DNA of 64,000 nucleotides, taken from NCBI RefSeq assembly GCF_036365525.1, contig NC_090383.1, positions 120,406,531 to 120,470,530 on the forward strand, read 5' to 3'. A program made the position numbers and the translations under genes. Below are positions 1,597 through 31,082 of the stretch, piece after piece. A model generated the notes under the pieces. It was not told the DNA's origin, did not search any database, and saw only the letters and a program-made list of their open reading frames with translations. Each line of letters begins with the position of its first letter. The stretch's first letter is position 1. The DNA comes from Heterodontus francisci (Eukaryota).

Positions 1597-1670
1597 CCAT
1601 CTATGTTCTGTAGAAGGAGGGCTTCTGTGATCTGCAGGCAGGGTCTGATCACCAGTTGTCCCCGATGAGG
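1597..1670 (-). CDS. Candidate cytoplasmic-tail exon of the minus-strand VJ-Ig receptor (pseudo)gene
   Basis: Unique island between two LINEs; acceptor ttttatcatttatttcacag, donor tgg|gtgagt; open in phase 1 matching the TM exon: (P)SSGTTGDQTLPADHRSPPSTEHRW. Confidence 0.45.
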
Positions 1671-1709
1671 CTGTGAAATAAATGATAAAATGTCATCAAC
1701 CGTCAAGAA

Positions 1710-4700
1710 AGAACAGAAGAAATAGGAGTTGGAGGAGGCCATTTGGCCCTTCAAACCTGCTCTGCCATTCAATAAGATCACGGCTGATCTTCTACCTCAA
1801 CTTCACCTTCCTGCACTATCCCCATATCCCTTAATTTCCTTTGTACACAAACATCCATCGACCTCTGTCTTGAATATACTCAACGATGAAACATCCACAG
1901 CTCTGGGGCAGAAAATTCTAATGATTCACAGCCCTTTGAGTGAAGACATTTCTCCCGATTCAGTCCTAAATGGCTGACCCTTTGTTCTGAGACCATGAAG
2001 AAACATTTTCTCAGCATCTACCCCATCAAGCCCTTTAAGAATTTTATGTGTTTCAATAAGATCACGTCTCATTCTTCTAAACTCCTGGGAATATAGGCCT
2101 AGTCTACTCAATCTGTCCCCATGGAACAATCCCCTCATCCCAGGAACCACTCTAGTGAACCTCAATTACACTCCTTCAAGGGCAAGTGTATCCTTCTAGA
2201 GGTAAGGAGACCAAAACTGCACACAGTTCTCCAGGTGTGGTCTCACCAATGCCCTGTATAATTGTAGTCAGCCTTCTTCACTCTTATACTTCAATCCCTA
2301 CAAGTCCCTAACAAAAGCTAACGTACCATTTGCCTTCCGAATTGCTTGCTGTGCCTGCATGTTAACTTTCGGTGATTCATGTCCAAGGACACCCAGGTCC
2401 CTCTGAATGCAAACATTTCCCAGTTTCTCACCATTCAAAAATATTCTGCTTTTTTATTTTTCCTGCCAAAGTGGATACTTTTAGGTCAGACTTCACCACA
2501 TTGTATTTAATCTGCCATGTTCTTGCCCACTCACTCAACCTGTCTATATCCCTCTGCAGTCTCTTTGAATCCTCCTCACCTCTTACTTTCCCACCTAACT
2601 TTGTATTGTCAGAAAACTTGGATACATTATATTCAGTCTCCTCATCTGAGTTATGAATATAGATTGTAAATAGTTGAGTACTGATCCTTGTTAGTTACAG
2701 CTTTCCAACGCAAAAATGTCTCCGTTTTCTGTCCATTAACAATCCTCAATCCATATATTACCTCAATATATTACCCCCCAATCCCATGAGTCCTAATTTT
2801 GTGATAAACTCTTGTGTGGCACCTTATTGAATACTTTTGAAAATCCAAATGCGCTTCATCCACTGCTTCCCCCTTATCCATCTTACTAGTTACATCCTTA
2901 AGAAATTCTAACAGATTTGTCAAACACAATTTACCTTTCATAAATCTGTGTTGACTCTGTTTCATCTTAGTATGATTTACTAAATGCCTTGTTACCATGT
3001 CCCTAATAATTTTGCCGACGACTGATGTTAGGCGAAATAGACAACAGTTCCCGATTTTCTCTCTTCCTCCTTTCTTAAACAGTGAGGTTATATTTGCTAA
3101 CTTCCAATGCTGGGTAACTGTTCTCCAATCTAATGAATGCTGGAAGATCTAAACCAATGCATCCACTTTCTCTGCAACGACCTCTTTTAAAATTCTAAAA
3201 TACAGGTCATCAGGTCCAGGGGATTTGTCACCATTTAGTCCCATTGATTTCTTTAAGTTCCTCATCCTCACTAGACCCTTGGTTCCCCATTATTTCTGGA
3301 ATTTTTTTTTGTCCTCTACCATGAGACAAATGCAAAGGGCTGGATTTTTAAATGCCGATGGGAATGAGTGCATGGACGATTAGAAAATCACATTCCCAGA
3401 GGGCGGCACTGGGCCCCACTGCCTCCGGGACACAAAGGGAGTTTGAAAGGGGCACCAGAAGGGGAAGAATGGGAAAAACGCATGCCTAGAGTTAAAGGCT
3501 TGTTAAGCACGTTGAGGAGCTCATTGAAAGGCTATGAAAAGAGACTGGATAGGCTAGGATTGTTTTCCTTAGAGCAGAGAAGGCTGAGAAGGGACCTGGT
3601 TGAGGTGTACAAGATTATAAGGGACATTGATAGGATAGATAGGAAGAAACCTTTTCCCTTAGCGGAAGGATCAACAACCAAGGGGCATAAATTTAAGGTA
3701 AGGGGCAGAAGGGAATTTTCGATACTTTAAATGCAAGTATCACATATGCCTTCCTAATCACCTTCTCTATCTGTGCTGCTGCCTTCAGTGATCTATGGAC
3801 TAGTACACCATGGTTCCTCTGACCCTCTGTACTTCCTTAGTCCTCCCAAAATGCATCACCTCACACTTCTCAGGATTAAATTCCATCTGCCACTGCTTCG
3901 CCCATCTTACCAGCCCATCTATATCATTGTGAATTTCCTGCTCACTATTTATGACACCACCAATTTTCGTGTCATCTGCGGACTTACTGATCATACCAAT
4001 CATCACCCTCTGCCTCCTGCCACTAAGCCAATTTTGGATCCAATTTGCCAAATTGCCCAAGATCCCATGGGCTCTTACCTTCTTAACCAATCTCTCATGC
4101 GGGACCTTATCAAAAGCCTTACTGAAGTCCATGTAGACTACATCAACTGCTTTACCCTCATCTACACATTTAGTCACTGCCTCGAAAAATTCAATCAAGT
4201 TTCTAAGACACGATCTCCCCCTGACAAAACCATGCTGACTATCCCTGATTAATCTCTGCCTCACCAAATGGAGATTAATCCTGTAAATGGAGATTAATCC
4301 TGAATATTGCCCCTTTTATGAGGGTGGCTGCCATCTCAGTGATTCAACTGACCACTTGAACTGACATTGTTAGGGAGACCTATGGCCATTCTGTGAGTTC
4401 AGTCCGCCTGAAGACAGAGTCTCTTGCCACTCACCTTTCCAGACCTTATGAGCTCATTGAATCTCTTCTAGCATTGGATCCACGTCCTTCGGGTCACTCC
4501 CCTGCCTCTGACCTCACTCGCTACTTCCTTCCAGGCCTTTTTATTTCCTTCAGTGGGTTCCTTCTCCCAGATTTTGGGAATAAGATGTCTCTCCCCTCAC
4601 TGACAGCCTCCTTTACTGCCTTGAGGGAGGTACTTGAGAATTGTGGAACCTGCCAGTTCCATCACTTTTTGTGGAAGTCCCCTGCTTCTCTGTTTCTTCA

Positions 4701-5870
4701 GCTAGCACCAAGCCCAGCCTTAGCTACAGCTTATCTTTTCAAAGGGCCCTCGCGTACTGGGTCCCGCGTCCATGTTGCTCCTGATGCTGCTATTGGGCAC
4801 CACACTCGCCTCGTGACCAATTAGGCTACGGGACAGGGTTGAGTCTTGGAAGTGATCCAGGCTTTGTGTTCCTAACCCCAGAATGAATGCTCAGGCTAAA
4901 GTATTTAATTAATATCTCTGCCATTTCCGTATTCCTGATTATAATTTCACCTGTCTCTGCCTCTGATGGATCCACTTTACCTTCACTAATCTCGTCCTAA
5001 TTACATACCGATAGAAACATTTACAATCTGTTTTATGTCTCTTGCTGGTCGAGTCTCATGTTCCCTTTTCTACATCCTTATCAATTTCTTGGTCTCCCTT
5101 TGCTGAATTCTAAAATCTTTTTTTTTTAATTTCCAAAATATACTTTATTCATAAAAATCTGTAAAAATTACATTGCCAAACAGTTTCAAACAGCACCAAA
5201 AAATACAAACATTGCAAGGGAGATCAGTTTCCTTCAATACAATCATGAGTTTCTTCACAACCCTTCCATTTCACAATTGTCATGCCAATTACAGTTTTAC
5301 ATTTACAGCAAATGAAAATATTAACGATACAGTTCGAGGGGTTTCCCATGAATCCAGCCCCTCAGTTCAGCTTGGTGGGGGAACCTGACACAGTGGTCTT
5401 TCCCCATTGACCTTTGCTGCGGCTGTCCCAAGCTTTACTGCGTCCCTCAGCACGTAGTCCTGGACCTTGGAATGTGCCAGTCTGCAACATTCGGTGGTGG
5501 ACATGAATTCTAAAATCCTCCCAATCTTCAGGCTTACTACTCTTTTTAGCAACATTATAAACCTTTACCTTTGATCTAATACTGTTTGTAATATTCCTCA
5601 CAGTTGGACCACTTTTATGTGGGGTTTTAGTGATTTCAAGGAATGTACATTTCTTGCAAATGATATATTAATTCTTTAAATGCTACCCATTGCTTCTCTA
5701 CTATCATGTATTTTAATGTAATTTTCCACTCTACCATGGCCATCTCACCCCTTATACCTAAATAGTTTATTTTCTTTATATTTAAGACACTAGCTTTGAA
5801 CTTAACAAAATCATTTTCAAACTCGATATAAAATTCTAACATATTACAGTCACTCTTCTCTGGAGGCTCC
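1710..5870 (-). mobile_element. Old degraded CR1 LINE with nested insertions
   Basis: Fragmented RT/C-terminal ORFs (1926-2165, 2771-2998, 5636-5872) with frameshifts; additional CR1 pieces at ~3530-3710 (+) and 3800-4267 (-) nested inside. Confidence 0.8.
5118..5503 (-). mobile_element. L1-Tx1 clade LINE 3' fragment with poly(A) and 14-bp TSD
   Basis: TSD tgaattctaaaatc at 5104-5117 and 5504-5517; poly(T) at 5118; minus-strand ECCRLAHSKVQDYVLRDAVKLG resembles the Tx1-type ORF2 C-terminus. Confidence 0.8.
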
Positions 5871-5949
5871 ATGTGTTATGTTATGAAAATAATTCCCTGA
5901 AAGTTAATTCATTTCTGAAAGCAAAAGTTAGAAAACAATGAGGGATATT

Positions 5950-8900
5950 TATCATAGAATCATAGAATGGTTACAGCACAGAAGGAGGCTTTTCAGACAT
6001 CAAGCCAGTGCCAGCTCTCTGGGAGAACAATTTCATTAGCCCCGCTCACCCACCCTTTCCCGTTGCCCTACGACTTTTTTCTCTTCAGGTGCTAATCCAA
6101 TTCCCTTTTGAAAGCCATGAATGAACGTGCCTCCACCATACTCTCAGACAGTGCATTCCAGATCCTAAACACTCACTGAACCTGCCTCCACCACACTCTC
6201 AGACAGTGCATTCCAGATCCTAAACACTCACTGAACCTGCCTCCACCACACTCTCAGACAGTGCATTCCAGATCCTAAACACTCACTGAACCTGCCTCCA
6301 CCACACTCTCAGACAGTGCATTCCAGATCCTAAACACTCACTGAACCTGCCTCCACCACACACTCAGACAGTGCATTCCAGATCCTAAACACTCACTGAA
6401 CCTGCCTCCACCACACTCTCAGACAGTGCATTCCAGATCCTAAACACTCACTGAACCTGCCTCCACCACACTCTCAGACAGTGCATTCCAGATCCTAAAC
6501 ACTCACTGAACCTGCCTCCACCACACTCTCAGGCAGTGCATTCCAGATCCTAAACACACACTGAACCTGCCTCCACCACACAGTCAGACAGTGCATTCCA
6601 GATCCTAAACACTCACTGAATCTTCCTCCACCACATTCTCAGGCAGTGCATTCCAGATCCTAAACACTCACTGAACCTGCCTCCACCACATTCTCAGACA
6701 GTGCATTCCAGATCCTAAACACACACTGAACCTGCCTCCACCACATTCTCAGACAGTGCATTCCAGATCCTAAACACTCACTGAACCTGCCTCCACCACA
6801 CTCTCAGACAGTGCATTCCAGATCCTAAACACTCACTGAACCTGCCTCCACCACACTCTCAGACAGTGCATTCCAGATCCTAAACACTCACTGAACCTGC
6901 CTCCACCACACTCTCAGACAGTGCATTCCAGATCCTAAACACTCACTGAACCTGCCTCCACCACACTCTCAGACAGTGCATTCCAGATCCTAAACACTCA
7001 CTGAACCTGCCTCCACCACACTCTCAGGCAGTGCATTCCAGATCCTAAACACTCACTGAACCTGCCTCCACCACACTCTCAGACAGTGCATTCCTGATCC
7101 TAAACACACACTGAACCTGCCTCCACCACACAGTCAGACAGTGCATTCCAGATCCTAAACACTCACTGAATCTTCCTCCACCACATTCTCAGGCAGTGCA
7201 TTCCAGATCCTAAACACTCACTGAACCTGCCTCCACCACATTCTCAGACAGTGCATTCCAGATCCTAAACACACACTGAACCTGCCTCCACCACATTCTC
7301 AGACAGTGCATTCCAGATCCTAAACACTCACTGAACCTGCCTCCACCACACTCTCAGGCAGTGCATTCCAGATCCTAAACACTCACTGAACCTGCCTCCA
7401 CCACACTCTCAGACAGTGCATTCCAGATCCTAAAAACGCACTGAACCTGCCTCCACCACACTCTCAGACAGTGCATTCCTGATCCTAAACACTCACTGAA
7501 CCTGCCTCCGCCACACTCTCAGACAGTGCATTCCGGATCCTGAACACTCACTGAATCTGCCTCCACCACACTCTCAGGCAGTGCATTCCGGATCCTGAAC
7601 ACACACTGAACCTGCCTCCATCACACTCTCAGACAGTGCATTCCAGATCCTAAAAACGCACTGAACCTGCCTCCACCACACTCTCAGACAGTGCATTCCT
7701 GATCCTAAACACTCACTGAACCTGCCTCCACCACACTCTCAGACAGTGCATTCCTGATCCTAAACACACACTGAACCTGCCTCCACCACATTCTCAGACA
7801 GTGCATTCCAGATCCTAAACACACACTGAACCTGCCTCCACCACATTCTCAGACAGTGCATTCCAGATCCTAAACACTCACTGAACCTGCCTCCACCACA
7901 CTCTCAGGCAGTGCATTCCAGATCCTAAACACTCACTGAACCTGCCTCCACCACACTCTCAGACAGTGCATTCCTGATCCTAAACACACACTGAACCTGC
8001 CTCCACCACACAGTCAGACAGTGCATTCCAGATCCTAAACACTCACTGAATCTTCCTCCACCACATTCTCAGGCAGTGCATTCCAGATCCTAAACACTCA
8101 CTGAACCTGCCTCCACCACATTCTCAGACAGTGCATTCCAGATCCTAAACACACACTGAACCTGCCTCCACCACATTCTCAGACAGTGCATTCCAGATCC
8201 TAAACACTCACTGAACCTGCCTCCACCACACTCTCAGGCAGTGCATTCCAGATCCTAAACACTCACTGAACCTGCCTCCACCACACTCTCAGACAGTGCA
8301 TTCCAGATCCTAAAAACGCACTGAACCTGCCTCCACCACACTCTCAGACAGTGCATTCCTGATCCTAAACACTCACTGAACCTGCCTCCGCCACACTCTC
8401 AGACAGTGCATTCCGGATCCTGAACACTCACTGAATCTGCCTCCACCACACTCTCAGGCAGTGCATTCCGGATCCTGAACACACACTGAACCTGCCTCCA
8501 TCACACTCTCAGACAGTGCATTCCAGATCCTAAAAACGCACTGAACCTGCCTCCACCACACTCTCAGACAGTGCATTCCTGATCCTAAACACTCACTGAA
8601 CCTGCCTCCACCACACTCTCAGACAGTGCATTCCTGATCCTAAACACACACTGAACCTGCCTCCACCACACAGTCAGACAGTGCATTCCAGATCCTAAAC
8701 ACTCACTGAATCTTCCTCCACCACATTCTCAGGCAGTGCATTCCAGATCCTAAACACTCACTGAACCTGCCTCCACCACATTCTCAGACAGTGCATTCCA
8801 GATCCTAAACACACACTGAACCTGCCTCCACCACATTCTCAGACAGTGCATTCCAGATCCTAAACACTCACTGAACCTGCCTCCACCACACTCTCAGGCA

Positions 8901-10110
8901 GTGCATTCCAGATCCTAAACACTCACTGAACCTGCCTCCACCACACTCTCAGACAGTGCATTCCAGATCCTAAAAACGCACTGAACCTGCCTCCACCACA
9001 CTCTCAGACAGTGCATTCCTGATCCTAAACACTCACTGAACCTGCCTCCGCCACACTCTCAGACAGTGCATTCCGGATCCTGAACACTCACTGAATCTGC
9101 CTCCACCACACTCTCAGGCTGTGCATTCCGGATCCTGAACACACACTGAACCTGCCTCCATCACACTCTCAGACAGTGCATTCCAGATCCTAAAAACGCA
9201 CTGAACCTGCCTCCACCACACTCTCAGACAGTGCATTCCTGATCCTAAACACTCACTGAACCTGCCTCCACCACACTCTCAGACAGTGCATTCCAGATCC
9301 TAAACACACACTGAACCTGCCTCCATCACACTCTCAGACAGTGCATTCCAGATCCTAAACACTCACTGAACCTGCCTCCACCACACTCTCAGACAGTGCA
9401 TTCCGGATCCTGAACACTCACTGAATCTGCCTCCACCACACTCTCAGACAGTGCATTCCAGATCCTAACCACTCACTGAACCTGCCTCCACCACACTCTC
9501 AGGCAGTGCATTCCGGATCCTGAACACTCACTGAATCTGCCTCCACCACACTCTCAGACAGTGCATTCCAGATCCTAACCACTCACTGAACCTGCCTCCA
9601 CCACACTCTCAGACAGTGCATTCCAGATCCTAACCACTCGCTGCATGATAAGGTTTTCCTCATGTCGCCTTTGGTTCCTTTGCCATTCACCTTAAGTCGG
9701 TGTCCTCTGGTTCTGAACGCTTCCGCCAATGGAACAGTTACTCCTGATCTACTCTGTTCAGAACACTCGTTATTTTGAATACATCTATCAAATCTCCTCT
9801 TAATCTTCTCTCTTCAAAGCAGAATAACACCAGCTTCTCCAATCTTCTCACGTGACTGAAGTTCCTCACCCCGGAACTATTCTCTTAATCTTTTCTTCCC
9901 CCTCTCCAATGCCGTCCCACCCTTCTACAGTGTGGTGTCAAGAATTGGACACAATAATCCAGTTGCTACAAACCAATGTTTTATAAATGTTCATCATAAC
10001 TCCCATACTTTTGTACTCTATGCCTCTATTTATGAAGCCCAGAATCCTGTATGCTTTATTAACCACTTTCTCAACCTGCCCTGCAACTTCCAATGATATC
10101 CTGCAACCCC
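5950..10110 (-). mobile_element. CR1 LINE 3' portion hosting the 55-bp minisatellite
   Basis: (atcataga)n CR1 tail at ~5950; CR1 sequence resumes collinearly after the array at ~9640. Confidence 0.8.
6123..9640. repeat. 55-bp minisatellite (~64 units) with higher-order duplications
   Basis: Unit aacctgcctccaccacactctcagacagtgcattccagatcctaaacactcactg; variant tcttcctcca recurs at 6621, 7171, 8051, 8711 (spacings 550/880/660 bp). Confidence 0.95.
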
Positions 10111-10821
10111 ATTAGTATATTTTGATTGTTATACAAGTAAATCTGAGCCTGATCTTAGTGACATTTTAATCCCAATATCTGTACAATACTGGAAATGCAG
10201 TCGATGCATCACCAAAAGACATCATTTAATTAATCCCACAATTATTTCTACACAGGATGTTTTACAGCAATCGCCAAAACATCTTCAACAGCACCTTCCA
10301 AACGCACAACCTCTACCACCTAGATAGACAAAGAAAACAGAGGAATGGGAACACCCTCACTTGCAAGTTCCCCTCTAAGTCACACACCATCCTGACTTGG
10401 AACTATATCGCTGTTCCTTCACTCTCGCTGGGTCAAAATCCTGGAACCCCCTCCCTAACAGCACTGTGGGTGTACCTACATCACATGGACTGCAGCTATT
10501 CAAGAAGGTGGCTCACCACCACCTTCTCAAGGAAAATTAGTGATGAGCAATAAATGCTGGTTTTGCCAGTGACATTCACATCTGGGAAATGGACAAATCT
10601 TCACTGACTGAAAGGGTGTTGGAAGCAAATTCAATAATAACTTTGAAAAGGGAATTGAATAAATACTTGCAGCAAAAAAAAAATGCCAAGGCTATGGGGA
10701 AAGAGCAGGTCTGTGGACTATTTGGATAGCTCTGCTGTATGGTCTACGGTGCTCTATCATTCGAAGATTCTACACAATGTCATAGCAATCAACTCAAGCT
10801 CAATTATTTAGTCACACATAC

Positions 10822-10953
10822 GGGATTGAATCTTGCCAAAAAGTGTGTATCTGGTGAATAAAATTCCTCCAATAACAGTAACTCCCAGCACAGTCCCCAG
10901 AATGATCCAGACAAAGGTCATCCTCTGAAAGTGATCCGTTTGTGTTTCAGAAA
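10822..10953 (-). CDS. Transmembrane exon of the minus-strand VJ-Ig receptor (pseudo)gene
   Basis: Acceptor gatttcctttcacag, donor c|gtatgt; 132 nt, symmetric phase 1-1, open: SETQTDHFQRMTFVWIILGTVLGVTVIGGILFTRYTLFGKIQS; 22-aa hydrophobic span followed by R/K. Confidence 0.7.
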
Positions 10954-11455
10954 CTGTGAAAGGAAATCACACATTTTAGACCAAAGACAAGCGAAAGACA
11001 TCAGATTTCCTTCCATCGGTAAAGTCAGAAATGGTACCAATGGGAAAATAAAATCAGGATGCAATTCAAATTGAGCTGGGCACCCGACATGCTGGAAACT
11101 CGGGGCGGGGGGCAATGGCTGGAAATTGCTTTTGAGATGCTCCTGCAATGCTGCTGTAACTTTACCGAAAGTATATTTCCAAGGAAATTCTAACCACTGT
11201 TAGCTTAACCAATTTGGGAAGATGCAGATAGAAGCAATAAGTTACAAAGAGATGAAGGCAGACTAAATTAATGAGTAAAATTGTTCAACGTGAGGAATTG
11301 GGAGGTCTAGCGCTTTGAAAACAAGGATGACAAGTCAGAATATTCTCTCAATGGTGAGAAACTAGGAACTGTGGAGGAGTAAAGAGATTTGGGTGTCCAT
11401 GAACAAATATCACTAAAAAAGCATTGGACAGGTAGAAAAAGTAATTAGAAAGGCT

Positions 11456-11611
11456 GAAATAAAAACAAGAAATGCTGGAATCACTCAGCAGGTCCGGCAG
11501 CATCTGTGGAAAGAGAAGCAGAGTTAACATTTCGGGTCAGTGACCCTTCTTCGGATTCCAGCATTTCTTGTTTTTATTTCAGATTTCCAGCATCCGCAGT
11601 ATTTTGCTTTT
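11456..11611 (-). mobile_element. Short Penelope-like terminal-repeat fragment with inverted ends and degenerate hammerhead motif
   Basis: ~28-bp inverted repeat tgaaataaaaacaagaaatgctggaatc / gattccagcatttcttgtttttatttca; flanked by near-duplicate aat(t/c)agaaaggct; core variant CCGAAGA...GAAA on the minus strand. Confidence 0.6.
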
Positions 11612-11626
11612 AATCAGAAAGGCTAT

Positions 11627-11970
11627 TATTTATTTAATTTAGAGATACAGCACTGAAACAGGCCCTTCAGCCCACCAAGTCTGTGCTGACCAACAACCAC
11701 TCATTTATGCTAATCCTACATTAATCCCATATTTCCTTCCGCATCCCCACCATTCTCTTACCACCTACCTACACTAAGGGCAATTTGTAACGGCCAATTT
11801 ACCCATCAACCTGTAAGTCATTGGCTGTGGGAGGAAACTGGAGCACCCGGTGGAAACCCACACAGTCACAGGCAGAACTTGCAAACTCCACACAGGCAGT
11901 ACCCAGAACTGAACCTGGGTTGCTGGAGCTGTGAGGCTGCGGTGCTAACCACTGCGCCACTGTGCCGCCC
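11627..11970 (-). mobile_element. HE1-like tRNA-derived V-SINE
   Basis: Reverse complement begins gggcggcacagtggcgcagtggttagcacc (A box), has B-box-like gggttcagttc, the V-domain gggtgctccagtttcctcccaca and a CR1-like tail. Confidence 0.85.
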
Positions 11971-13587
11971 ATTGACATATTGGTCTTTATCCCAACATGA
12001 CTACAATATAAAAGGGAAGAATTGATGCTTCAGTTGTACAGAGTCTTGGTCAGATGTCAACTGGAGTAATGGCATTTAATTCTGGGCACTGAACCTCAGC
12101 AATATGTTGGCCTTTAAGTGGGTTCCGGTACAGATTCACCAGAATGATAACTGGGCTAAAAGGGTTAAATTAAGAGGACAGGCTTCATAAACTTGGCTTG
12201 TATTCCTTTGAGTTTACTAGATTGAGGGGTGACCTAACTGAGGTGGTTGAAGGTCGTTACAGAAAATCTATGTTATCTGGTTGGGAAAATCCAGAGCAAA
12301 AGAGCACGATCTTAGGCTTGACCATTCAGGAGTGAAATCAGGAAGCACCTTTTCACAGAGAGGATAGTGGAAATCTAAAAACCCCTCTCCCAAAAAGCTG
12401 AGGATGTCGAGCAGCTAGTGTGTTGTAACTGCAGCATTTAGAAGTTTATGGAGAGCATTGTGACACTAAATGACCATAACTGCTGTAAGTGTTTGCATCT
12501 CAAGGAACTTCAGCTCAGAGTTGCTGAGCTAGAGTCCGAGCTGCAGACACTACGGGGCATCAGGGAGGGGGAGAGTTACCTGGATACTTTGATCCAGGAA
12601 GCAGTCTCACTCCTTAGGTTAGGAAGTGTTATTGGTTATAAACAGGAGGGTGTGATAGTGAGTCGGGCAGGTAAGCGGACCCAAGGGGCAGTGCTGGAGG
12701 AGCATTGACCTTTGTCCTTATCCAAAGGTACAAGGTTCTTGGTGTTTGTGTGGATCAAGGCAAAGTTTGAAGGATTCATGAACAAACTGACAGAAAACAG
12801 AGAGTAGGAATAAACGGGTCATTATCGGATTGGCAGGCTGTAACTGGCAGAGAACTGCATGAATCACTGCCTGGGCCTTGAGCTTTTTTCAATGTATATC
12901 AAGGACTTAGATGAGGGGACCAAATGTAATTTATCCAAGTTTGCTGATAGTACACGGGGTTGAGAATCTTTGAAATTCTCTACCTAAAGGACTGTGGGTG
13001 CACAGTTGTTGTGTATATTCATGTCAAAGATTGACAGGTTTGTGGATACTAAGGAAATTAAGGGATATGAAAAGGTGTAACTGAGTTCGAAGATCAGCCA
13101 TGACTAGCTCAGGCTCAAAGGGTTGAAAGACTGATTCCTGCTCCTTTTTCATAATGTTCTTATGTTGGGTTCATTGAAATTTTCAAGGTTGAGATTGACA
13201 GATTTTCATTCAGTAAAGTTTCAAGGGTATTATATAATAATAAGGCAGGTAACTGGAGTTCAGATACAGATCAGCTATAATCTAATAAAATGGGATAACA
13301 GGCTCAAAGGGCTGAATAGCCTACTCCTGTTACTATATTCCCTCCATATTATCTCACCATTCACAGCCGTGCTGTCAGCCACCTAGGCCCCATGTTCTTA
13401 ACTTTCCTGTCTCAATCCCTATGCCTCGCCATCTCCCCCTCCTCCTTTAAGACCTTCCTTCAAACCTACTCTTTCACTCAGCAACTTCCCCACATGCTCC
13501 TGGATGAAAATTTCAGGGTTAGCCCCGACTGGGTCACATTAGTCTTCATGTTTTCTCACCACTGCTCAGCTCTGAATTCTCACTCAC

Positions 13588-13682
13588 TGGGGAGATCAGT
13601 TGCAGACGGGATGGAGATGAAGTTATTGGGTAATTGGCAGCTGCAGATTTGTGACCAGCTGATTCTTTTCCTCCATCTGAGG
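13588..13682 (-). pseudogene. Candidate Ser/Thr/Pro/Ala-rich stalk exon (95 nt, 1 nt short of symmetric)
   Basis: Acceptor actttcacacttacag, donor cca|gtgagt; reads SDGGKESAGHKSAAANYPITS..., end frame IPSATDLP; lies between the V and TM exons. Confidence 0.35.
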
Positions 13683-15359
13683 CTGTAAGTGTGAAAGTAT
13701 TTTCTCAACAAGCCTGATTCTGTTGTACTCATTAATCCCTGATTATCCGGACACTTACGAATATTTGTTCCTCTCATGTCCTGTAGATAATTCCCAGCAG
13801 AATGAACCAGGTAACATGGAGAGAGAAGAGCCAAACCTACTCTGGCCATAGAATCCCCATTGTTTCCCTCATCCCATCATTCCTTCCAACTTTTCCAACC
13901 AGCAGTTTGAAGGCTAGTACCCAGGTCATCCAGATAGTGAATAGGAAAGGAGTGAGCAGGGTGTGACACAAAGTACTAGTGCACAGGAGCAAGAGAATCA
14001 AGGGGATGGGTGTCACCCCCAAGTCAAGGACTATCAGACGTCCGCTCCTTGGCTGAGGAGCCTCAGGACCTGAGACTACCCGGCTTATAAACAAAGGATG
14101 TAACAGAGCATCACACCGATGTACAGGCACTGTGTGTGAATTGTATATTAATTGTGATTGATTTCCTGCACTCACTTCATAGAATCACAGAATCACACAG
14201 CACAGAAAGAGGCTATTCTTCCCATCACGCCTGTGCTGGATCTCTGAAAGAATGATCCAATTAGTTCCACTCCGCTGTTTCCCCACAACCCGGCGGAATT
14301 TAGAGTTGAATTTAAATGGGATGCAAAACCAATGGATTTTATCAAAGCCCCATATTTTATCACCTCACTGCTCTATGGCAGATTCAGCATTCCCACCAAA
14401 CTATCAGAATTTTAGAGTATTTGACTTTGCTAGCTGCAGTCATTAACAATCTCTCCGCCTGCCGTCTCATAAGCAGTGACTGCCAGGGAACAATAACAGG
14501 GCTGTTGGGAATTGGGGGGTCATGGGTCAGCACTCTAGGTGTTAAGATGTCTTTTTCCTTTGGGTGCTGATCGGTGTGATGTATGTTTCCAATATTTTAC
14601 ACATTTATGTTAGACTTTCAGCACTTCAAGATTTTTTTATTTTTTCTCCCAATCTCTTTCCGTGTTTTACATCTCCGACCCCTTGATTCTGGAGTTTTTA
14701 TTCTGTGTATTTTCCCTGTGCCTTTTCACATGATGTTATTTCACATCCTTTTATTGTTTTAATTCCTTGTTGCCACAGGGAGATGATTTTCGTGTATCAG
14801 CTAGCTGTTTATACCTCTTTCCAGCTTCATTATAAACCTGTTGGTGGGTCACTGAACCAATGAGTTGCCTCTTTGTGACCAGTGTTGACCCTTAGCTCTC
14901 TCTCTCTCCGCCTGTTCCCCACTTCATTGCGTTGAGTCTAAGAGCAGTTTGTTCTTTTTCCACTCTATTAAGGGCCTATGCACAAAACATAAACCAGGTC
15001 TTTCTCTGTACGGATGTCGATTAGCCTGTTCTGTATTTCTGGCATTCAGTTTTATTTTGGATCTTTTTATTTTTATTATTGAATAGCATCAGACTAATTC
15101 CCTGTGGTAGTTTTTTTCTGCACAGTTGCTGTGGGAATGGTTGAGAGAGACATTTCTTTAGACGTCTTCCCTGTGGTTATCTGCAAAGTTACAGGAAATG
15201 AATGGTGGTGAGTTTGTTACTGGATATACTCGGCATTGTTTTTGGAAGGAAAGAGCTCAGTGTCCAATTGGCTTTGTCTAATCTCATAGCTTTTGTGTTC
15301 TTCTACTCAATACAGTGCAGTTCATGTGACTCTGCCAGTGTTCACTAACATTCACTTAC

Positions 15360-15706
15360 TGGTTACATTGAGCTGGGTCCCTGCTCCATAGATGTAGCTC
15401 CACACACTGCAGCTGTAGGCAGCTGTATCATTGAGGGTCACATTCACAATGGTCAGAATGTAACTGTTACTGGTGATATTCCTGGACGGTTGAAAACGGT
15501 TGTGGACACCATGGGACCTGGTAATGGTGCCATTCACAAACTGGCTCATCATCCAAAAGCTGATGTTCCCAGGTCACTGCTGTGTCAGTGGACATCAGTG
15601 TCACTCACACTGGCATGGTATATGGCACATTGTAACTCAACAGTTTCACCTTCTACCACCTTGCTAACTTGTGGATGCTGAATAAGGATTGGGTCCAGCA
15701 TTGGTC
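15360..15706 (-). pseudogene. Germline-joined VJ-type Ig V-set exon, disabled
   Basis: Acceptor caacag, donor a|gtaagt. Reads GPMLDPILIQHPQVSKVVEGETVELQCAIYHASVSDTDVH*...PGNISFWMMSQ...RFQPSRNITSNSYILTIVNVTLNDTAAYSCSVWSYIYGAGTQLNVT. Canonical Trp codon is TGA (15587-15585), there is a 1-nt deletion (347 nt), a second TGA (15576-15574) and YYC->YSC. Confidence 0.9.
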
Positions 15707-16398
15707 CTGTTGATATTTAAAAGAATCAAAAATGATAATATAACTTGAAGCAAACCTTCTCCTGCTTAATCATCGAATCATACAGCACAGAAGGGGGCCA
15801 TTATGCCTATTGTGTCTGTGTCTGCTCTTTGAAAGCAATATCCAGTTAATTCCAGTCCCCGTGCCCTTTCCCCATAGCTTTGCAAATTTCTCCTTTTCAA
15901 GTATTTATCCCATGCCCTTTTGCAAGTTAATATTAAACGTGCTTCCACCATGTTTTCAGGCAGTGCATTCTACATTACAACAACTCGTTGCATAAGGAAA
16001 TTGATCTACATTGCACCCCTAACTTTTTATCAATTACTTTAAATCTGTGTCCTTTGGTTACCGACCCTCCTGCCAGTGGAACTGCTTCTCACTAACTACA
16101 TAAAAACCCACATAATTTTGAACACCTGAATTAAATCTTCCCTTAAACTTTTCTGATCTGAGGAAAAAAATTCCAGTTTTCAAGTGTAAAAATAAGGAAT
16201 GGCAAAGTCCACAAGTCTGGTATCAGCTACTTACAAAGTACTACTTGGTTAATGGGGATTTCTTTTAGTTTAGTTCTTGTAATAAAAGTCTTAAAATATG
16301 AAATCTTGCCCTGTAATTCCTTAAATTGGCCTGGGGAGCTCATCTCTCCTATTTTAACATGAACGGTCGAACTGAGGTCGTAACAACACAAAACTGAC

Positions 16399-16464
16399 GA
16401 GTGCTGAGTGACTACTCCACAGAATTACCAACAGTTTAACATATTTAAACAAGATATTGCACAT
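16399..16464 (-). pseudogene. Possible leader exon of the minus-strand VJ gene
   Basis: ATG-initiated MCNILFKYVKLLVILWSSHSAL followed by gtcagt; phase 0, whereas the V exon needs phase 1. Confidence 0.25.
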
Positions 16465-20560: not shown

Positions 20561-23000
20561 ATGAATCTGCCTCCACCACACTCTCAGGCAGTGCATTCCA
20601 GATCCTAAACACTCACTGAACCTGCCCCCACCACACTCTCAGGCAGTGCATTCCAGATCCTAAACACTAACTGAACCTGCCTCCACCACACTCTCAGACA
20701 GTGCATTCCAGATCCTAAACACTCACTGAACCTACCTCCACCACACTCTCAGGCAGTGCATTCCAGCTCCTAAACACTCACTGAACCTGCCTCCACCGTA
20801 CTCTCAGACAGTGCATTCCAGATCCTAATCACTCACTGAACCTGCCTCCACCACACTCTCAGGCAGTGCATTCCAGATCCTAAACACTCACTGAACCTGC
20901 CTCCACCACACTCTCAGATAGTGCATTCCAGATCCTCACAAACCTTATTGAGTTTTTTGACAAGGTGACCAAACAGGTGGATGAGGGTAAAGCCGTGGAT
21001 GTGGTCTATATGGATTTCAGTAAGGCGTTTGATAAAGTTCCCCACGGTAGGCTATTGCAGAAAATACAGAAGTATGGGATTGAAGGTGAATTAGTGCTTT
21101 GGATCAGAAATTGGCTAGCTGAAAGAAGACAGAGGGTGGTGGTTGATGGTAAATGTTCATCCTGGAGTATAGTTTCTAGTGGTGTACCGCAAGGATCTGT
21201 TTTGGGGCCACTGCTGTTTGTCATTTTTATAAATGACCTGGATGAGGGTGTAGAAGGGTGGGTTAGTAAATTTGCGGATGACACGAAGGTCGGTGGAATT
21301 GTGGATAGTGCCGAAGGATGTTGTAGGTTACAGAGGGACATAGATAGGCTGCAGAGCTGGACTGAGAGATGGCAAATGGAGTTTAATGTGGAAAAGTGTG
21401 AGGTGATTCACTTCGGAAGGAGTAACAGGAATGCAGAATACTGGGCTAATGGGAAGATTCTTGGTAGTGTAGATGAACAGAGAGATCTTGGTGTCCAGGT
21501 GCATAAATCCCTGAATGTTGCCACCCAGGTCAATAGAGCTGTTAAGAAGGCATATGGTGTGTTAGCTTTTATTAGTAGGGGGATCGAGTTTAGGAGCCAC
21601 GAGGTCATGCTGCAGCTGTACAGAACTCTGGTGCGGCTGCACTTGGAGTATTGCATGCAGTTCTGGTCACCGCATTATAGGAAGGATGTGGAAGCTTTGG
21701 AAAGGGTGCAGAGGAGATTTACTAGGATGTTGCCTGGTATGGAGGGAAGGTCTTACGAGGAAAGGCTGAGGGACTTGAGGTTGTTTTCGTTAGAGAGAAG
21801 GAGGAGAAGAGGTGACTTAATAGAGACATATAAGATAATCAGAGGGTTGGACAGGGTGGATAGGGAGAGCCTTTTTCCTCGGATGGTGATGGCAAACACG
21901 AGGGGACATAGCTTTAAGTTGAGGGGTGATAGATATAGGACAGATGTCAGAAGTAGTTTCTTTACACAGAGAGTAGTAGGGGTGTGGAACGCCCTGCCTG
22001 CAACAGTAGTAGACTTGCCAACTTTAAGGGCATTTAAGTGGTCATTGGATAGACATATGGATGAAAATGGAATAGTGTAGGTCAGATGGTTTCACAGGTC
22101 GGTGCAACATCGAGGGCTGAAGGGCCTGTACTGCGCTGTAATGTTCTATGTTCTATGTTCTAAACACTCACTGAACCTTCCTCCACCACACTCTCAGACA
22201 GTGCATTCCAGATCCTAATCACTCACTGAACCTGCCTCCACCGCACTCTGACAGTGCATTCCAGCTCCTAAACACTAACTGAACCTGCCTCCACCACACT
22301 CTCAGACAGTGCATTCCAGCTCCTAAACACTAATTGAACCTGCCTCCACCACACTCTCAGACAGTGCATTCCAGATCCTAAACACTCACTGAACCTGCCT
22401 CCACCGCACTCTCAGACAGTGCATTCCAGCTCCTAAACACTAATTGAACCTGCCTCCACCACACTCTCAGACAGTGCATTCCAGCTCCTAAACACTAACT
22501 GAACCTGCCTCCACCACACTCTCAGACAGTGCATTCCAGCTCCTAAACACTAATTGAACCTGCCTCCACCACACTCTCAGACAGTGCATTCCAGCTCCTA
22601 AACACTAATTGAACCTGCCTCCACCACACTCTCAGACAGTGCATTCCAGCTCCTAAACACTAACTGAACCTGCCTCCACCACACTCTCAGACAGTGCATT
22701 CCAGATCCTAAACACTAACTGAACCTGCCTCCACCACACTCTCAGACAGTGCATTCCAGCTCCTAAACACTAATTGAACCTGCCTCCACCACACTCTCAG
22801 ACAGTGCATTCCAGCTCCTAAACACTAACTGAACCTGCCTCCACCACACTCTCAGACAGTGCATTCCAGCTCCTAAACACTAATTGAACCTGCCTCCACC
22901 ACACTCTCAGACAGTGCATTCCAGATCCTAAACACTCACTGAACCTGCCTCCACCACACTCTCAGACAGTGCATTCCAGATCCTAATCACACACTGAACC
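20561..23000. repeat. Second array of the 55-bp CR1-derived minisatellite, split by a young CR1
   Basis: Same unit as 6123-9640 at 20561-20936 and 22161-23000, with private variants (ccagctcc, actaatt). Confidence 0.9.
20937..22160 (+). mobile_element. Young 5'-truncated CR1 LINE, intact RT C-terminal ORF (20965-22080)
   Basis: 371-aa uninterrupted ORF with YMDFSKAFDKV, GVPQGSVLGP, FADD; (ttctatg)n 3' tail. Confidence 0.95.
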
Positions 23001-26000
23001 TCTGTAACTGAGTTGCAGTGGAACCGAACCTCCCTCTGTAACTGAGTTACACTGGAACCAACACTCCCTCCTTAATGAGTTCCACTGGAACCAACCCTCC
23101 CTCTGAAACTGAGTTACACTGGAACCAACTCTCCTTCTGTAACTGAGTTACACTGGAACAAACCCTCCCTCTGAAACGGAGTTACACTGGAACCAACTCT
23201 CCTTCTGTAACTTAGTTACACTGGAACCAACCCTCCCTCTGAAACTGAGTTACACTGGAAACAACCCTCCTTCTGTAACGTACTTACACTGGAACCAACT
23301 CTCCTTCTTAAACTGAGTTACACTGGAACCAATCCTCCTTCTGTAACTGAGTTATACTGGAACCAATCCTCCTTCTGTAACTGAGTTACACTGGAACCAA
23401 GCCTCCCTCCGTAACTGAGATGCAGTGGAACCAGCCATCCCTTTGGAACTAAGTTACACTGGAAGCAACCCTCCCTCTGGAACTGAGTTACACTGGTACA
23501 AATCCTCCCTCGGTAGCTGAGATTCCCTGGAACCAACTCCCCTTCTGGAACTGAGTTACGCTGGAACCAATCCTCCTTCTGTAACTGAGTTACACTGGAA
23601 CCAATCCTCCTTCTGTAACTGAGTTACACTGGAACCAATCCTCCTTCTGTAACTGAGTTACACTGGAACCAATCCTCCTTCTGTAACTGAGTTACACTGG
23701 AACCAATCCTCCTTCTGTAACTGAGTTACACTGGAACCAATCCTCCTTCTGTAACTGAGTTACACTGGAACCAATCCTCCTTCTGTAACTGAGTTACACT
23801 GGAACCAATCCTCCTTCTGTAACTGAGTTACACTGGAACCAATCCTCCTTCTGTAACTGAGTTACACTGGAACCAATCCTCCTTCTGTAACTGAGTTACA
23901 CTGGAACCAATCCTCCTTCTGTAACTGAGTTACACTGGAACCAATCCTCCTTCTCTAACTGAGTTACACTGGAACCAATCCTCCTTCTGTAACTGAGTTA
24001 CACTGGAACCAATCCTCCTTCTGTAACTGAGTTACACTGGAACCAATCCTCCTTCTGTAACTGAGTTACACTGGAACCAATCCTCCTTCTGTAACTGAGT
24101 TACACTGGAACCAATCCTCCTTCTCTAACTGAGTTACACTGGAACCAATCCTCCTTCTCTAACTGAGTTACACTGGAACCAATCCTCCTTCTGTAACTGA
24201 GTTACACTGGAACCAATCCTCCTTCTGTAACGTACTTACACTGGAACCAACTCTCCTTCTTAAACTGAGTTACACTGGAACCAACTCTCCTTCTGTAACT
24301 GAGTTACACTGGAACCAACTCTCCTTCTGTAACTGAGTTACACTGGAACCAACTCTCCTTCTGTAACTGAGTTACACTGGAACCAACTCTCCTTCTGTAA
24401 CTGAGTTACACTGGAACCAACTCTCCTTCTGTAACTGAGTTACACTGGAACCAACCACCATCTCTGTAACTGAGTAGCACTGGAAAAACCCTTCCTCTGT
24501 AACTGACTTACACTGGAACCAACCCACCCTCCATAACTGAGTTACACTCAAACCGACCCCCCTCTGTAACTGAGTTACACTCGAACCAGCCTCCCTCTGT
24601 AACTGAGTTACACTGGAACCACCCCTCCCTCTGGAACTGAGTTACAGTGGAACCAATCCTGCCTCTGGAACTGAGTTACACTGGAACCAACCCGCCCTCC
24701 GTAACAGAGTTGCACTGGAATCAACCCTCCCTCTGGAACTGACTTACACTCAAACCGACCCCCCTCTGTAACTGAGTTACACTCGAACCAGCCTCCCTCT
24801 GTAACTGAGTTACACTGGAACCACCCCTCCCTCTGGAACTGTGTTACATTGGAACCAGCCCTCGCTCTATAACTGTGTTACAGTGGAACCAATCCTGCCT
24901 CTGGAACTGAGTTACACTGGAACCAACCCGCCCTCCGTAACAGAGTTGCACTGGAATCAACCCTCCCTCTGGAACTGAGTTACAATGGAACCAACCCTCC
25001 TTCCGTAACTGAGTTACACTGGAACCAACCCTGCCTCTGGAACTGAGTTACACTGGAACCAACCCTCCCTCTGTAACTGAGTTACACTGGAACCAACCCT
25101 CCCTCTGGAACTGAGTTACACTGGAACCAACCCTCCCTCTGGAACTGAGTTACACTGGAACCAACCCTCCCTCTGGAACTGAGTTAGACTGAAATCATCC
25201 CTCCCTCTGGACCTGAGTTGCACTGGAACCAACCCTCCCTCTGGAACTGAGTTACACTGGAACCAACCCATCCTCTGAAACTGAGTTACACTGGAACCAA
25301 CCCCCCCCCCCCTCCGTAACTGAGTTACACTGGAACCAACCCTCCCTCTGGAACTGGGTTACACTGGAACCAACTCTCCCTCTGGAACTGAGTTACACTG
25401 GAACTGTCCCTACCTCTGGAACTGAGTTGCACTGGAAGCAAGCCTCCCTCTGGAACTGAGTTACACTGGAACCAACCCTCCCTCTGTAACTGAGTTACAC
25501 TGGAACCAACCCTCCCTCCGTAACTGAGTTACACTGGAACCAACCCTCCCTCCGTAACTGAGTTACACTGGAACAACCCTCCCTCTGGAACTGAGTTACA
25601 CTGGAACCAACCCTCCCTCTGTAACTGAGTTACACTGGAACCAACCCTCCCTCCGTAACTGAGTTACACTGGAACCAACCCTCCCTCCGTAACTGAGTTA
25701 CACTGGAACAACCCTCCCTCTGGAACTGAGTTACACTGGAACCAACCCTCCCTCTGGAACTGAGTAACTCTCAAACCAACCCTCCCTCCGTAACTGAGTT
25801 ACACTGGAACCAACCCTCCCTCCGTAACTGAGTTACACTGGAACAACCCTCCCTCTGGAACTGAGTTACATTGGAACCAACCCTCCCTCTGGAACCAACC
25901 CTCCCTCTGGAACCAACCCTCCCTCTGGAACTGAGTTACACTAGAACCAACCCTCCCTCTGTAACTAAGTTACACTAGAACCAACCCTCCCTCTGGAACT

Positions 26001-27566
26001 GAGTTACACTAGAACCAGTCCTCCCTCTGGAACTGAGTTACACTAGAACCAGTCCTCCCTCTGGAACTGGGTTACACTGGAACCAACTCTCCTTCTGTAA
26101 CTGAGTTACACTGGAACCAACCCTCCCTCTGTAACTCAGTTACATTGGAACCAACCCTCCCTCTGGAACCAACCCTCCCTCTGTAACTGAGATATACTGG
26201 AACCAACCCATCCCTTGTAACTGAGTTACACTGGAACCAACCCTCCCTCTGTAACTGAGTTACACTAGAACCAACCCTCCCTCTGGAACTGAGTTACACT
26301 GGAACCAACCCTCCCTCTGGAACTGAGTTGCACTGGAACTGTCCCTACCTCTGGAACTGAGTTGCACTGGAACTGTCCCTACCTCTGGAACTGAGTTACA
26401 CTGGAACCAACCCACCCTCCATAACTGAGTTACACTCAAACTGACCCCCTCTGTAACTGAGTTACACTGGAACCAGCCCTCCCTCTGTAACTGAGTTACA
26501 CTGGAACCAGCCCTCCCTCTGTAACTGAGTTACACTGGAACCAGCCCTCCCTCTATAACTGTGTTACAGTGGAACCAACCCTCCCTCTTTAAATGAGTTA
26601 CACTGGAACCAACTCTCCTTCTGTAACTGAGTTACAGTGGAACCAATCCTGCCTCTGGAACTGAGTTACACTGGAACCAGCCCTCCCTCTGGAACTGAGT
26701 TACACTGGAACCAACCCTCCCTCTGGAATTGAGTTACACTGGAATCTGCCCTCCCTCTGGAACTGAGTTACACTGGAACCAGCCCTCCCTCTGCAACTGA
26801 GTAACTCTCAAACCAACCCTCCCTCTGTAACTCAGTTACATTGGAACCAACCCTCCCTCTGGAACCAACCCTCCCTCTGGAACTGAGTTACACCGGAACC
26901 AACCCTCCCTCTGGAACTGAGTTACACTGGAACCATCCCTCCCTCTGGAACTGAGTTGCACTGGAACCAACCCTCACTCTGGAACTGAGTTACACTGGAA
27001 CCAACCCTCCCTTTGTAAGTGAATTACACTGGAACCAACCCTCCCTCTGTAACTGAGTTACACTGGAACCAGCCCTCCCTCTGCAACTGAGTAACTCTCA
27101 AACCAACCCTCCCTCTGTAACTCAGTTACATTGGAACCAACCCTCCCTCTGGAACCAACCCTCCCTCTGTAACTGAGATATACTGGAACCCACCCACCCT
27201 CTGTAACTGAGTTACCCTGGAACCAACGCTCCTTCTGCAACTGAGTTACACTGGAACCAACCCTCCCTCTGTAACTGAGTTACACTGGAACCAACACTCC
27301 CTCTGTAACTGAGTTACACTGGAACCAACCCTCCCTCTGTAACTGAGTTACACTGGAACCAACCCTCCCTCTGTCACTGAGTTACACTGGAACCAACACT
27401 CCCTCTGTAACTGAGTTACACTGGAACCAACCCTCTCTCTGGAACTGAGTTACACTGGAACCAACCCTCCCTCTGTAACTGAGTTACACTGGAACCAACC
27501 CTCCCTCTGGAACTGAGTTACACTGGAACCAACCCTGTTTATAAACAGGTTACATTGGAACCAACT
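23001..27566. repeat. 34-bp satellite (~130 units) containing a 15-bp palindrome
   Basis: Unit ctgtaactgagttacactggaaccaa(t/c)cctcc(t/c)t; TGTAACT-G-AGTTACA palindrome; near-homogeneous core ~23570-24440. Confidence 0.95.
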
Positions 27567-30746: not shown

Positions 30747-31082
30747 TTGTCCCAGTTCTTATCCAGTCTCCGAGCCTCCGTGTCACAGAGGGTCACACAG
30801 CGCGGTTACAGTGCACCATGTGGAACACCGCAGTGAGAGACACTGATGTTCACTGGTACCGGGAGCTACCAGGACAAAATATGGAGTGGATTTTAACACA
30901 TGATATAATGAACAGCACACGACAGAGCCCAGGTTTCACTGACCGTTTCCAGTCTTCCAGAGACACCTCCAATAACAGCTTCATTCTGACAATCACAAAC
31001 GTGCAGCCCAATGACACTGCCGTCTATTACTGTAAAGTGTGGGGAGATATCAGTGGGAATGGAACCCAGATCATTGTAACCA
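30747..31082 (+). CDS. Germline-joined VJ-type Ig V-set exon, open reading frame
   Basis: Acceptor gtgcag, donor a|gtaaga, 336 nt phase 1-1: VPVLIQSPSLRVTEGHTARLQCTMWNTAVRDTDVHWYRELPGQNMEWILTHDIMNSTRQSPGFTDRFQSSRDTSNNSFILTITNVQPNDTAVYYCKVWGDISGNGTQIIVT; has both canonical Cys, the WYR motif, DTAVYYC and J-like GxGT. Confidence 0.9.

What the first reader, a model, noticed from the sequence alone, without database searches (positions are those of the whole stretch)
1597..16464. Hidden type-I membrane receptor architecture: VJ domain, stalk, TM and cytoplasmic exons scattered among LINEs
Seen: four minus-strand segments with good splice signals in colinear order, none in the ORF track in the right frame: V exon 15360-15706, stalk-like exon 13588-13682, an open phase-1/1 TM exon 10822-10953 and a tail exon 1597-1670. 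A Thr-rich segment at ~15102-15180 (ITTGKTSKEMSLSTIPTATVQKKTTT) has an acceptor but no donor. Known: V + mucin stalk + TM is the layout of CD8/CD7/TIM/CD300-type receptors. Inference: one gene, with an uncharged TM (so not DAP12/FcRgamma-coupled) and a tail continuing beyond the window. The V exon is dead while the TM and tail exons remain open.
Basis: partly seen in the sequence, partly recalled or inferred. Interest (0 to 1): 0.7.

Follow-up and report, generated by a model that had tools for sequence, protein, structure and literature searches.

The report
Broken shark antibody-like paired receptor
These scattered exons are a broken, most likely dead copy of a shark-and-ray cell-surface receptor gene whose intact neighbours carry predicted 'on' or 'off' signalling tails on ready-joined antibody-like domains, domains that were likely borrowed from an antibody light chain.

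Summary
Three of the four exons are real: the V exon (15360-15706), the TM exon (10822-10953) and the first tail exon (1597-1670). Each has a paralog 60-160 kb to the left and homologs in other cartilaginous fish. The 'stalk' and Thr-rich segments have no homolog, and the family splices V straight onto the TM exon, so the CD8/CD7/TIM/CD300 layout is not supported. The unit is an edge copy of a chondrichthyan cluster of type-I receptors with tandem single-exon VJ domains, uncharged TMs and either ITIM/ITSM tails or their own ITAM. By its TM and tail exon this copy is of the ITAM (activating) type, not the inhibitory type. It looks dead: a stop at the canonical Trp, a frameshift, no leader exon found and no ITAM exons found downstream. 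Open TM and tail frames are expected by chance. The interest lies in the family, not the locus. I found it named in none of 9 paper searches. It lies off the MHC class I contig, beside a ZNF395-like gene and MCM3, and its V domains are closest (about 50%) to a rearranging light chain, likely sigma-2. That grouping has only moderate tree support.

The parts
15360..15706 (-). Broken single-exon VJ domain (family V type normally found as an inner domain); stop at the C-strand Trp codon (15585), 1-nt deletion behind 15581; 3' part nearly identical to the intact paralog, likely by gene conversion
   Evidence: 36 differences in 348 columns to paralog exon at G000:C13:~120348760-120349111; 32 of first 152 vs 4 of last 196 columns (Fisher p 3.9e-9; 0 of 1000 permutations)
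10822..10953 (-). TM exon (short linker + uncharged TM + juxtamembrane), phase 1/1, open; of the type that leads to an ITAM tail in intact genes
   Evidence: only other copy found in G000 is gene A at C13:120249533-120249670; 70% aa identity to P0069; 2 synonymous and 12 non-synonymous codon differences plus one in-frame 3-nt gap
1597..1670 (-). First cytoplasmic exon (phase 1 to 0, 24 aa, no tyrosine); same exon type precedes an ITAM in other sharks' gene models
   Evidence: ranks next after gene A's exon among 3745 candidate exons with a family HMM (E 1.5e-5); best matches P0003, P0017, P0091, P0082
1671..10821 (-). TM-to-tail intron, 9151 nt against 173 nt in the intact paralog; filled with LINE pieces and a 3.5-kb 55-mer tandem array (6122-9643); both ends still align to the paralog intron
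13588..13682 (-). Proposed stalk exon: not supported. Exon-like splice signals, no homolog; faint resemblance to the cytoplasmic exon type (rank 14 and 27 of 3745), inconclusive
15102..15180 (-). Thr-rich segment: not supported as an exon (no donor, no homolog, single copy)
30747..31082 (+). Intact orphan VJ exon of the same family (336 nt, phase 1/1, AG/GT), on the opposite strand; no leader or TM exon found for it
   Evidence: Pfam V-set E 2.9e-19; 92-97% aa identity to V exons of the neighbouring genes

Best explanation
The V, TM and tail exons are the remains of one broken, likely non-functional edge copy of a cartilaginous-fish receptor family whose intact members put one to seven ready-joined VJ domains directly on an uncharged TM and are predicted to signal through their own ITAM or through ITIM/ITSM tails. 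Shown: exon homology, the lesions, family layout and tail motifs. Inferred: the intact members work as paired innate receptors, where ligand binding clusters the receptor, Src kinases phosphorylate the tail, and ITAM members recruit Syk/ZAP-70 while ITIM members recruit SHP-1/2 (established motif biology, untested here). This copy was of the ITAM type, lost its leader, upstream V exons and ITAM exons, took up about 9 kb of repeats in one intron, and had the 3' part of its V exon overwritten by conversion from the neighbouring intact gene. The V domains likely derive from a germline-joined sigma-2-type light-chain VJ exon (about 55%).
For: Paralogous exons with matching splice phases. 119 family proteins from sharks, rays and a chimaera; of 93 with a TM, 24 have an ITAM, 46 ITIM/ITSM only, 1 a charged TM. 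Intact gene A (ITAM, minus strand) and gene B (ITIM-type, plus strand) lie head to head 27-166 kb to the left. Contigs from runs X1 and X2 join gene A's V, TM and tail exons directly (the runs are only guessed to be RNA and are one sample). Catshark models P0031/P0036 join the same TM type to the same tail-exon type and P0036 goes on to an ITAM. For death of this copy: stop plus frameshift; no leader match better than E 0.4 in 464 kb except the two known leaders; best ITAM-exon scores left of the window equal shuffled sequence (18.6 vs shuffled mean 17.6; true exon 36.3); TM and tail stay open in 29-69% and 49-82% of neutral simulations. For origin: nearest non-family V in G000 are V-RSS12 segments with a downstream C exon on C46, 46-50% identical; tree support 96/93.
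Against: TM and tail exons keep open frames and good splice sites. In four carpet-shark models (P0003, P0017, P0082, P0091) this tail-exon type follows a different TM type, so TM and tail here could come from two gene copies. The ITAM-exon-3 profile is weak even on its true control (18.2), so a decayed or diverged exon 3 could be missed. The light-chain grouping fell to 79/82 with a wider sample, and a TCR-like sister (C5 segments) was not rejected (p-AU 0.127); NCR3, CD8, NITR and UrIg were not in the trees. No ligand, cell type or signalling was tested.
Confidence: 0.82

Rival explanations
1. One reading: one receptor with a single V, a mucin-like stalk exon, TM and an ITIM/ITSM tail (CD8/CD7/TIM/CD300 layout).
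For: Exon order is colinear; the 13682 acceptor with a donor 4 nt further on gives a 99-nt in-frame, Ser/Pro-rich exon; the Thr-rich stretch could be an exon with a lost donor (sequence). Some family members do carry long low-complexity stalks fused to the V exon (P0074, P0115).
Against: No homolog of either segment among 120 proteins or elsewhere in G000; linker 3-20 aa in 90 of 93 family proteins; paralog contigs join V to TM directly; TM and tail exon are of the ITAM branch; CD8, CD7, TIM and CD300 hallmarks absent.
Confidence: 0.05
2. The pieces are a patchwork of two or more decayed gene copies rather than one gene: psi-V from an inhibitory-type gene, TM from an ITAM gene, tail exon from a third.
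For: The V type is the third domain of inhibitory gene B in G000; the tail-exon type follows another TM type in four species; 9 kb separate TM and tail; the 'stalk' faintly resembles a stray cytoplasmic exon.
Against: Both ends of the TM-tail intron align to the paralog's single 173-nt intron; no second TM exon lies between them; P0031/P0036 join the same TM and tail types; this V type precedes an ITAM-type TM in P0098 and P0103.
Confidence: 0.1
3. The locus is still used: the broken V exon is skipped and the TM and tail exons give a small ectodomain-less or decoy membrane protein, or the assembly has inverted the 30.7-kb V exon across the tandem arrays at 20.5-27.5 kb and it belongs upstream on the minus strand.
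For: Open frames and intact splice sites; V exons are phase 1/1 and so skippable; flipping the orphan V gives the usual family order of V types before the TM; long tandem arrays lie between.
Against: No leader exon found on either side; no ITAM exons; 12 of 14 changed TM codons are non-synonymous; an unspliced tail ends 6 residues after the exon without a tyrosine.
Confidence: 0.07
4. On origin: the family's VJ exon is a relic of the pre-RAG non-rearranging precursor (like UrIg, NCR3) rather than a re-joined light chain.
For: Single-exon VJ without RSS; present in sharks, rays and chimaera; a joined VJ-C gene on C34 falls in the same part of the tree; deep branches are poorly resolved.
Against: About 50% identity to one rearranging light-chain class against 30-43% to other V classes; no hit on the MHC class I contig C29 among the 150 best V matches; no family member outside cartilaginous fish among named hits.
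Confidence: 0.3

Closest known systems
Ig light chain sigma-2 (sigma-cart, type I, NS5) V domain (label recalled; synonyms from PMC5985310)
   Same: Closest V class in G000 (46-50% identity) and in the representative library (P0162, P0205, P0209); shared RFQPSRD-SN-ILTI framework; sigma-2 V and J are joined in gar, coelacanth and turtle (PMC5985310, passages)
   Different: No RSS, no C1 domain, tandem V exons, 6-residue CDR3, Phe/Trp of the J motif kept in only 23 of 282 domains, 2.5 vs 0.3 N-glycan sequons per domain, TM and tyrosine tails
NITR (novel immune-type receptors of ray-finned fish)
   Same: Single-exon V with J-like end, clustered genes with pseudogenes (10.1101/2021.06.11.448072, passages); activating and inhibitory forms (recalled)
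   Different: No six-cysteine I domain (248 of 282 V cores have two Cys, none more than four); activation by an ITAM in the receptor's own tail rather than a charged TM
Hagfish APAR and NICIR, carp NILT (all recalled, no paper read)
   Same: Paired VJ receptors head to head (APAR); ITAM in the receptor's own tail (NICIR, NILT1)
   Different: APAR-A uses a charged TM; NICIR is V-C2; NILT V is CD300/TREM-like; no sequence test was possible
UrIg / UrIg2 and NCR3 (non-rearranging VJ genes; PMC12227049, parts 1-4 of 8)
   Same: Single-exon VJ in elasmobranchs
   Different: UrIg/UrIg2 have C1 domains and lie in the MHC or the antigen-receptor complex; this cluster has no C1 and lies on C13, while MHC class I is on C29
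CD8 / CD7 / TIM / CD300
   Same: Type-I membrane proteins with V-set domain
   Different: No stalk exon, tandem V, hallmark motifs absent; best sequence and fold matches are antibody and TCR V domains

Membership tests
Chondrichthyan tandem-VJ paired receptor family (unnamed; P0001-P0119) | Single-exon VJ, phase 1/1, no RSS | tested here: met
   exon is broken in this copy
Chondrichthyan tandem-VJ paired receptor family (unnamed; P0001-P0119) | Homologous uncharged TM exon and first tail exon | tested here: met
Chondrichthyan tandem-VJ paired receptor family (unnamed; P0001-P0119) | Leader exon and complete tyrosine-motif tail (functional gene) | tested here: not met
   none found in the flanks searched
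CD8 alpha/beta | O-glycosylated hinge exon and CxC/CxH Lck-binding tail motif (recalled) | tested here: not met
   linker 3-20 aa in 90 of 93; CxC/CxH in 3 of 93 family tails and not in this tail exon
TIM / CD300 | Extra conserved cysteines in V; WFND motif in TIM (recalled) | tested here: not met
   248 of 282 V cores with two Cys, WFND in 0 of 282
CD7 | Single V, long stalk, YEDM motif (recalled) | tested here: not met
   YEDM in 0 of 93 tails; short linker
CD8 / CD7 / TIM / CD300 | Fold closer to these than to antigen-receptor V | tested here: inconclusive
   the 50 rows shown are antibody, nanobody or TCR V domains (Z 19.5-16.7); unlisted families are not excluded
NITR | I domain with six conserved cysteines | tested here: not met
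   definition
UrIg / UrIg2 | VJ followed by C1 domains; linkage to MHC or IgH/TCR complex | tested here: not met
   no C1-set hit for P0069 or P0047; MHC class I on C29, IgH-type V on C34, cluster on C13
Ig light chain sigma-2 | V-J-C cluster with C1 exon, RSS or joined VJ | tested here: not met
   family genes end in TM and tail exons; C46 genes have RSS and C
Ig light chain sigma-2 | V domain descends from the sigma-2 clade | tested here: inconclusive
   96/93, 79/82; lambda-like sister rejected p-AU 0.015, C5 sister not rejected 0.127
Paired activating/inhibitory receptors | Kinase or phosphatase recruitment, shared ligand | not testable with these tools
   motifs only

The most novel reading that the evidence does not exclude
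Cartilaginous fish domesticated a germline-joined sigma-2 light-chain VJ exon more than 400 million years ago into a cluster of paired innate receptors with tandem V domains and their own ITAM or ITIM tails. This would be a direct case of the 'rejoined Ig gene becomes a novel receptor' idea, for which PMC2193156 said it had no direct example. This locus is a dead ITAM member that records the cluster's birth-and-death turnover and exon-level gene conversion.
Probability: 0.5. Interest if true: 0.75.

Novelty: new variant of a known kind. Interest (0 to 1): 0.42.

Why it matters
The locus itself is an ordinary decayed copy. The family matters: automatic annotation calls its members uncharacterized, PIGR-like, SIRP-like or perlecan-like, yet they look like a missing shark counterpart of NK/myeloid paired receptors, with the ITAM built into the receptor. 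If the V came from a re-joined light chain, traffic ran from adaptive to innate genes, and single-exon VJ genes cannot be taken by default as relics of the pre-RAG ancestor. Intact genes A and B next door give a ready activating/inhibitory pair for testing.

Tried and rejected
RNA: no RNA holder listed for window 10500-15800. Three runs guessed to be RNA (one sample, contigs only) were laid; the long pieces on the V and TM exons carried the paralogs' letters and none matched this copy; that blank is no evidence on expression, and one search was swamped by repeats. Stalk as a stray cytoplasmic exon: shuffle p about 0.002-0.004 with splice sites included but rank 14 and 27 of 3745 on exon bodies; left open. 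Hidden TM exon between V and stalk: none with a family TM HMM. Leader at about 16464: not matched by any of four family leaders. MHC class II profile found nothing in G000 and its control was silent; class I was used instead. J segments of C46 clusters were not picked up by my patterns, so the J parts were not compared. The C34 joined VJ (L101) was suspected to be UrIg2; it is a VJ + single C gene like P0238. Fold search listed no CD8/TIM/CD300 chain among 50 rows, which does not exclude them. Paper searches listed no description of this family; the 2019 J Immunol paper on the primordial immune complex is not held, subscription papers are not searched and no supplements were read, so a published name may exist.
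Full report
Setting. The window is G000:C13:120406531-120470530 of a 6.0-Gb genome, about 415 kb from the contig end. Family proteins and repeats mark it as a cartilaginous fish. Positions left of the window are given as negative window coordinates.

Observation. The V exon is 347 nt; its intact paralog at about -57770 is 348 nt. The window copy has TGA at the C-strand Trp codon and a 1-nt deletion four bases on. The TM exon has one other copy in G000 (86% over 188 nt) and the tail exon one (79% over 71 nt); both belong to gene A, about 157 kb to the left. TM and tail peptides score 143 and 72 against family proteins, above all 60 shuffles each.

The stalk is not supported. As drawn it is phase 1 to 0 and would frameshift the TM exon; a weaker donor 4 nt on gives a compatible 99-nt exon. 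It and the Thr-rich segment are single-copy and their proposed frames score like shuffles against 120 proteins (one other frame of the Thr segment, containing a stop, was reached by 2 of 60 shuffles). Exon-like segments occur about once per 4-7 kb in these introns. In 90 of 93 family proteins with a TM the last V is 3-20 residues from it; two of the other three have a V my pattern missed and one has a long repeat. Contigs from runs X1 and X2 on the TM exon carry gene A's letters, and their loose ends match a V-exon end on one side and gene A's tail exon on the other, so V joins TM directly. These runs are only guessed to be RNA and are one sample.

The family. A search with the intact + strand V exon at 30.7 kb gave 121 proteins at E <= 1e-15 of 170 candidates; 120 were listed, 119 family members and one light chain, and all 119 that show an organism are sharks, rays or a chimaera. 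They carry one to seven or more tandem VJ domains. Of 93 with a TM, 24 have an ITAM, 46 ITIM/ITSM only, 1 a charged TM (regular-expression calls on automatic gene models, some chimeric). Left of the window lie gene A (minus strand: leader, 2 V, TM, tail exon, 2 ITAM exons; P0069) and gene B (plus strand: leader, 4 V, a decayed V, TM, ITIM-type tail ending at -26808; P0007), head to head. More members lie on C650, C439 and C1995. MHC class I hits are on C29 and four small contigs, none on C13 (66 matches). The cluster borders a DUF4772 (ZNF395/704-type, name recalled) gene in the window and MCM3 about 105-115 kb right of it.

What this copy is. Its TM exon is gene A's type. Its tail exon is a sub-type that precedes an ITAM in models from bamboo, epaulette, whale and zebra sharks and catshark; catshark P0031/P0036 join the same TM and tail types, while the four carpet-shark models put this tail exon after another TM type. 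So the copy is of the activating branch. It looks dead. No leader was found: nhmmer with four family leaders over 464 kb gave only the two known ones below E 0.4. No upstream V lies on the minus strand. ITAM exons were not found left of the window: gene A's pair is single-copy in G000 and profile scores in the 28-kb gap equal shuffles, though the exon-3 profile is weak on its own control. The TM-tail intron has grown from 173 to 9151 nt. TM codon differences to gene A are 2 synonymous and 12 non-synonymous, and neutral simulation leaves TM open in 29-69% and tail in 49-82% of 4000 runs per setting, so open frames do not show function. The V exon differs from its paralog at 32 of the first 152 but 4 of the last 196 columns (0 of 1000 permutations), which I read as gene conversion; both lesions lie in the unconverted part.

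Mechanism of intact members (inferred). Tandem glycosylated V domains (2.5 sequons per domain against 0.3 in other V rows) with linkers of a few residues would form a rod. The J-motif Phe/Trp used in VH-VL pairing (recalled) is kept in 23 of 282 domains, so Fv-type pairing is likely lost. ITAM members would recruit Syk/ZAP-70 without an adaptor, ITIM/ITSM members SHP-1/2. No ligand is known; microbial or altered-self ligands are my guess from paired-receptor biology.

Origin. The nearest non-family V in G000 are C46 segments (46-50% identity) with a 12-spacer RSS and a C exon downstream; I recall them as the sigma-2 (type I/NS5) light chain. A 65-row tree grouped the family (98/88) with them and a joined VJ-C gene on C34 at 96/93. 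A 46-row tree, which dropped 25 family rows and 5 redundant others and added 11, kept the family at 99/97 but gave that grouping 79/82; a lambda-like sister was rejected (p-AU 0.015), a C5 (TCR-like) sister was not (0.127). Outgroups were chosen by likeness to the family and lacked NCR3, CD8, NITR and UrIg. The predicted fold of the paralog V (pLDDT 94.8) matches antibody and TCR V domains in all 50 rows shown. The representative search (2460 hits at E <= 0.001, 150 listed) gave family members, then light chains, among the 21 sequences I read and 10 I looked up.

Literature. Seen: PMC12227049 (parts 1-4 of 8), PMC2193156 (abstract, section 23), passages of PMC5985310, PMC11599192, PMC6795676 and bioRxiv 10.1101/2021.06.11.448072. 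None of what I read describes this family; nine searches listed no such paper. APAR, NICIR, NILT and the CD8/CD7/TIM/CD300 hallmarks are recalled. Seven earlier notes of this scan on other genomes reach the same family reading; I saw them after forming mine and they are not independent evidence.

Verdict. Real exons, wrong layout, likely pseudogene of a real and apparently unnamed family. Interest 0.42.

Noticed in passing
window 30747-31082 (+): Intact orphan VJ exon facing away from the broken V; the acceptor used by some paralogs appears changed but an in-frame AG 6 nt on is present; no leader or TM exon found for it. Could be a locally inverted upstream exon of the minus-strand unit.
   Followed up: partly
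window about 39900-47100 (-): Exons of a DUF4772 zinc-finger gene (ZNF395/ZNF704/SLC2A4RG type, name recalled); Pfam E 7.6e-16.
   Followed up: partly
L077:4522-5274 (-), window-equivalent 68522-69274: Long ORF with several tyrosine motifs and a proline-rich stretch, like a PAG1/LIME1-type transmembrane adaptor (resemblance recalled; no Pfam hit).
   Followed up: no
L087:3516-3782 and 7209-7481 (+): MCM3 exons about 105 kb right of the window.
   Followed up: yes
G000:C650:448217-454000 (+), L062: A family V exon runs on into a ~2000-codon Asn/Gly/Glu/Ser-rich repeat ORF before a TM exon: a giant glycosylated stalk fused to the V exon; similar in P0074 and P0115.
   Followed up: no
G000:C34:823795-824082 (-), L101/L120: Germline-joined VJ + single C light-chain-like gene on the IgH-bearing contig, 63% identical to P0238; may correspond to the joined sigma-2 genes flanking IgH in gar.
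   Followed up: partly
G000:C13 about 120364945-120365184 (+), L035: A second, more decayed V exon of the same type inside intact gene B.
   Followed up: no
G000:C439 and C1995: Two unplaced contigs give identical scores for the same three-V gene; P0047 fuses it to a coiled-coil gene 180 kb away, probably a gene-model error.
   Followed up: no
window 6122-9643, 20562-27536: Long 55-mer and 34-mer tandem arrays; the same 55-mer occurs on both sides of the broken V exon.
   Followed up: no
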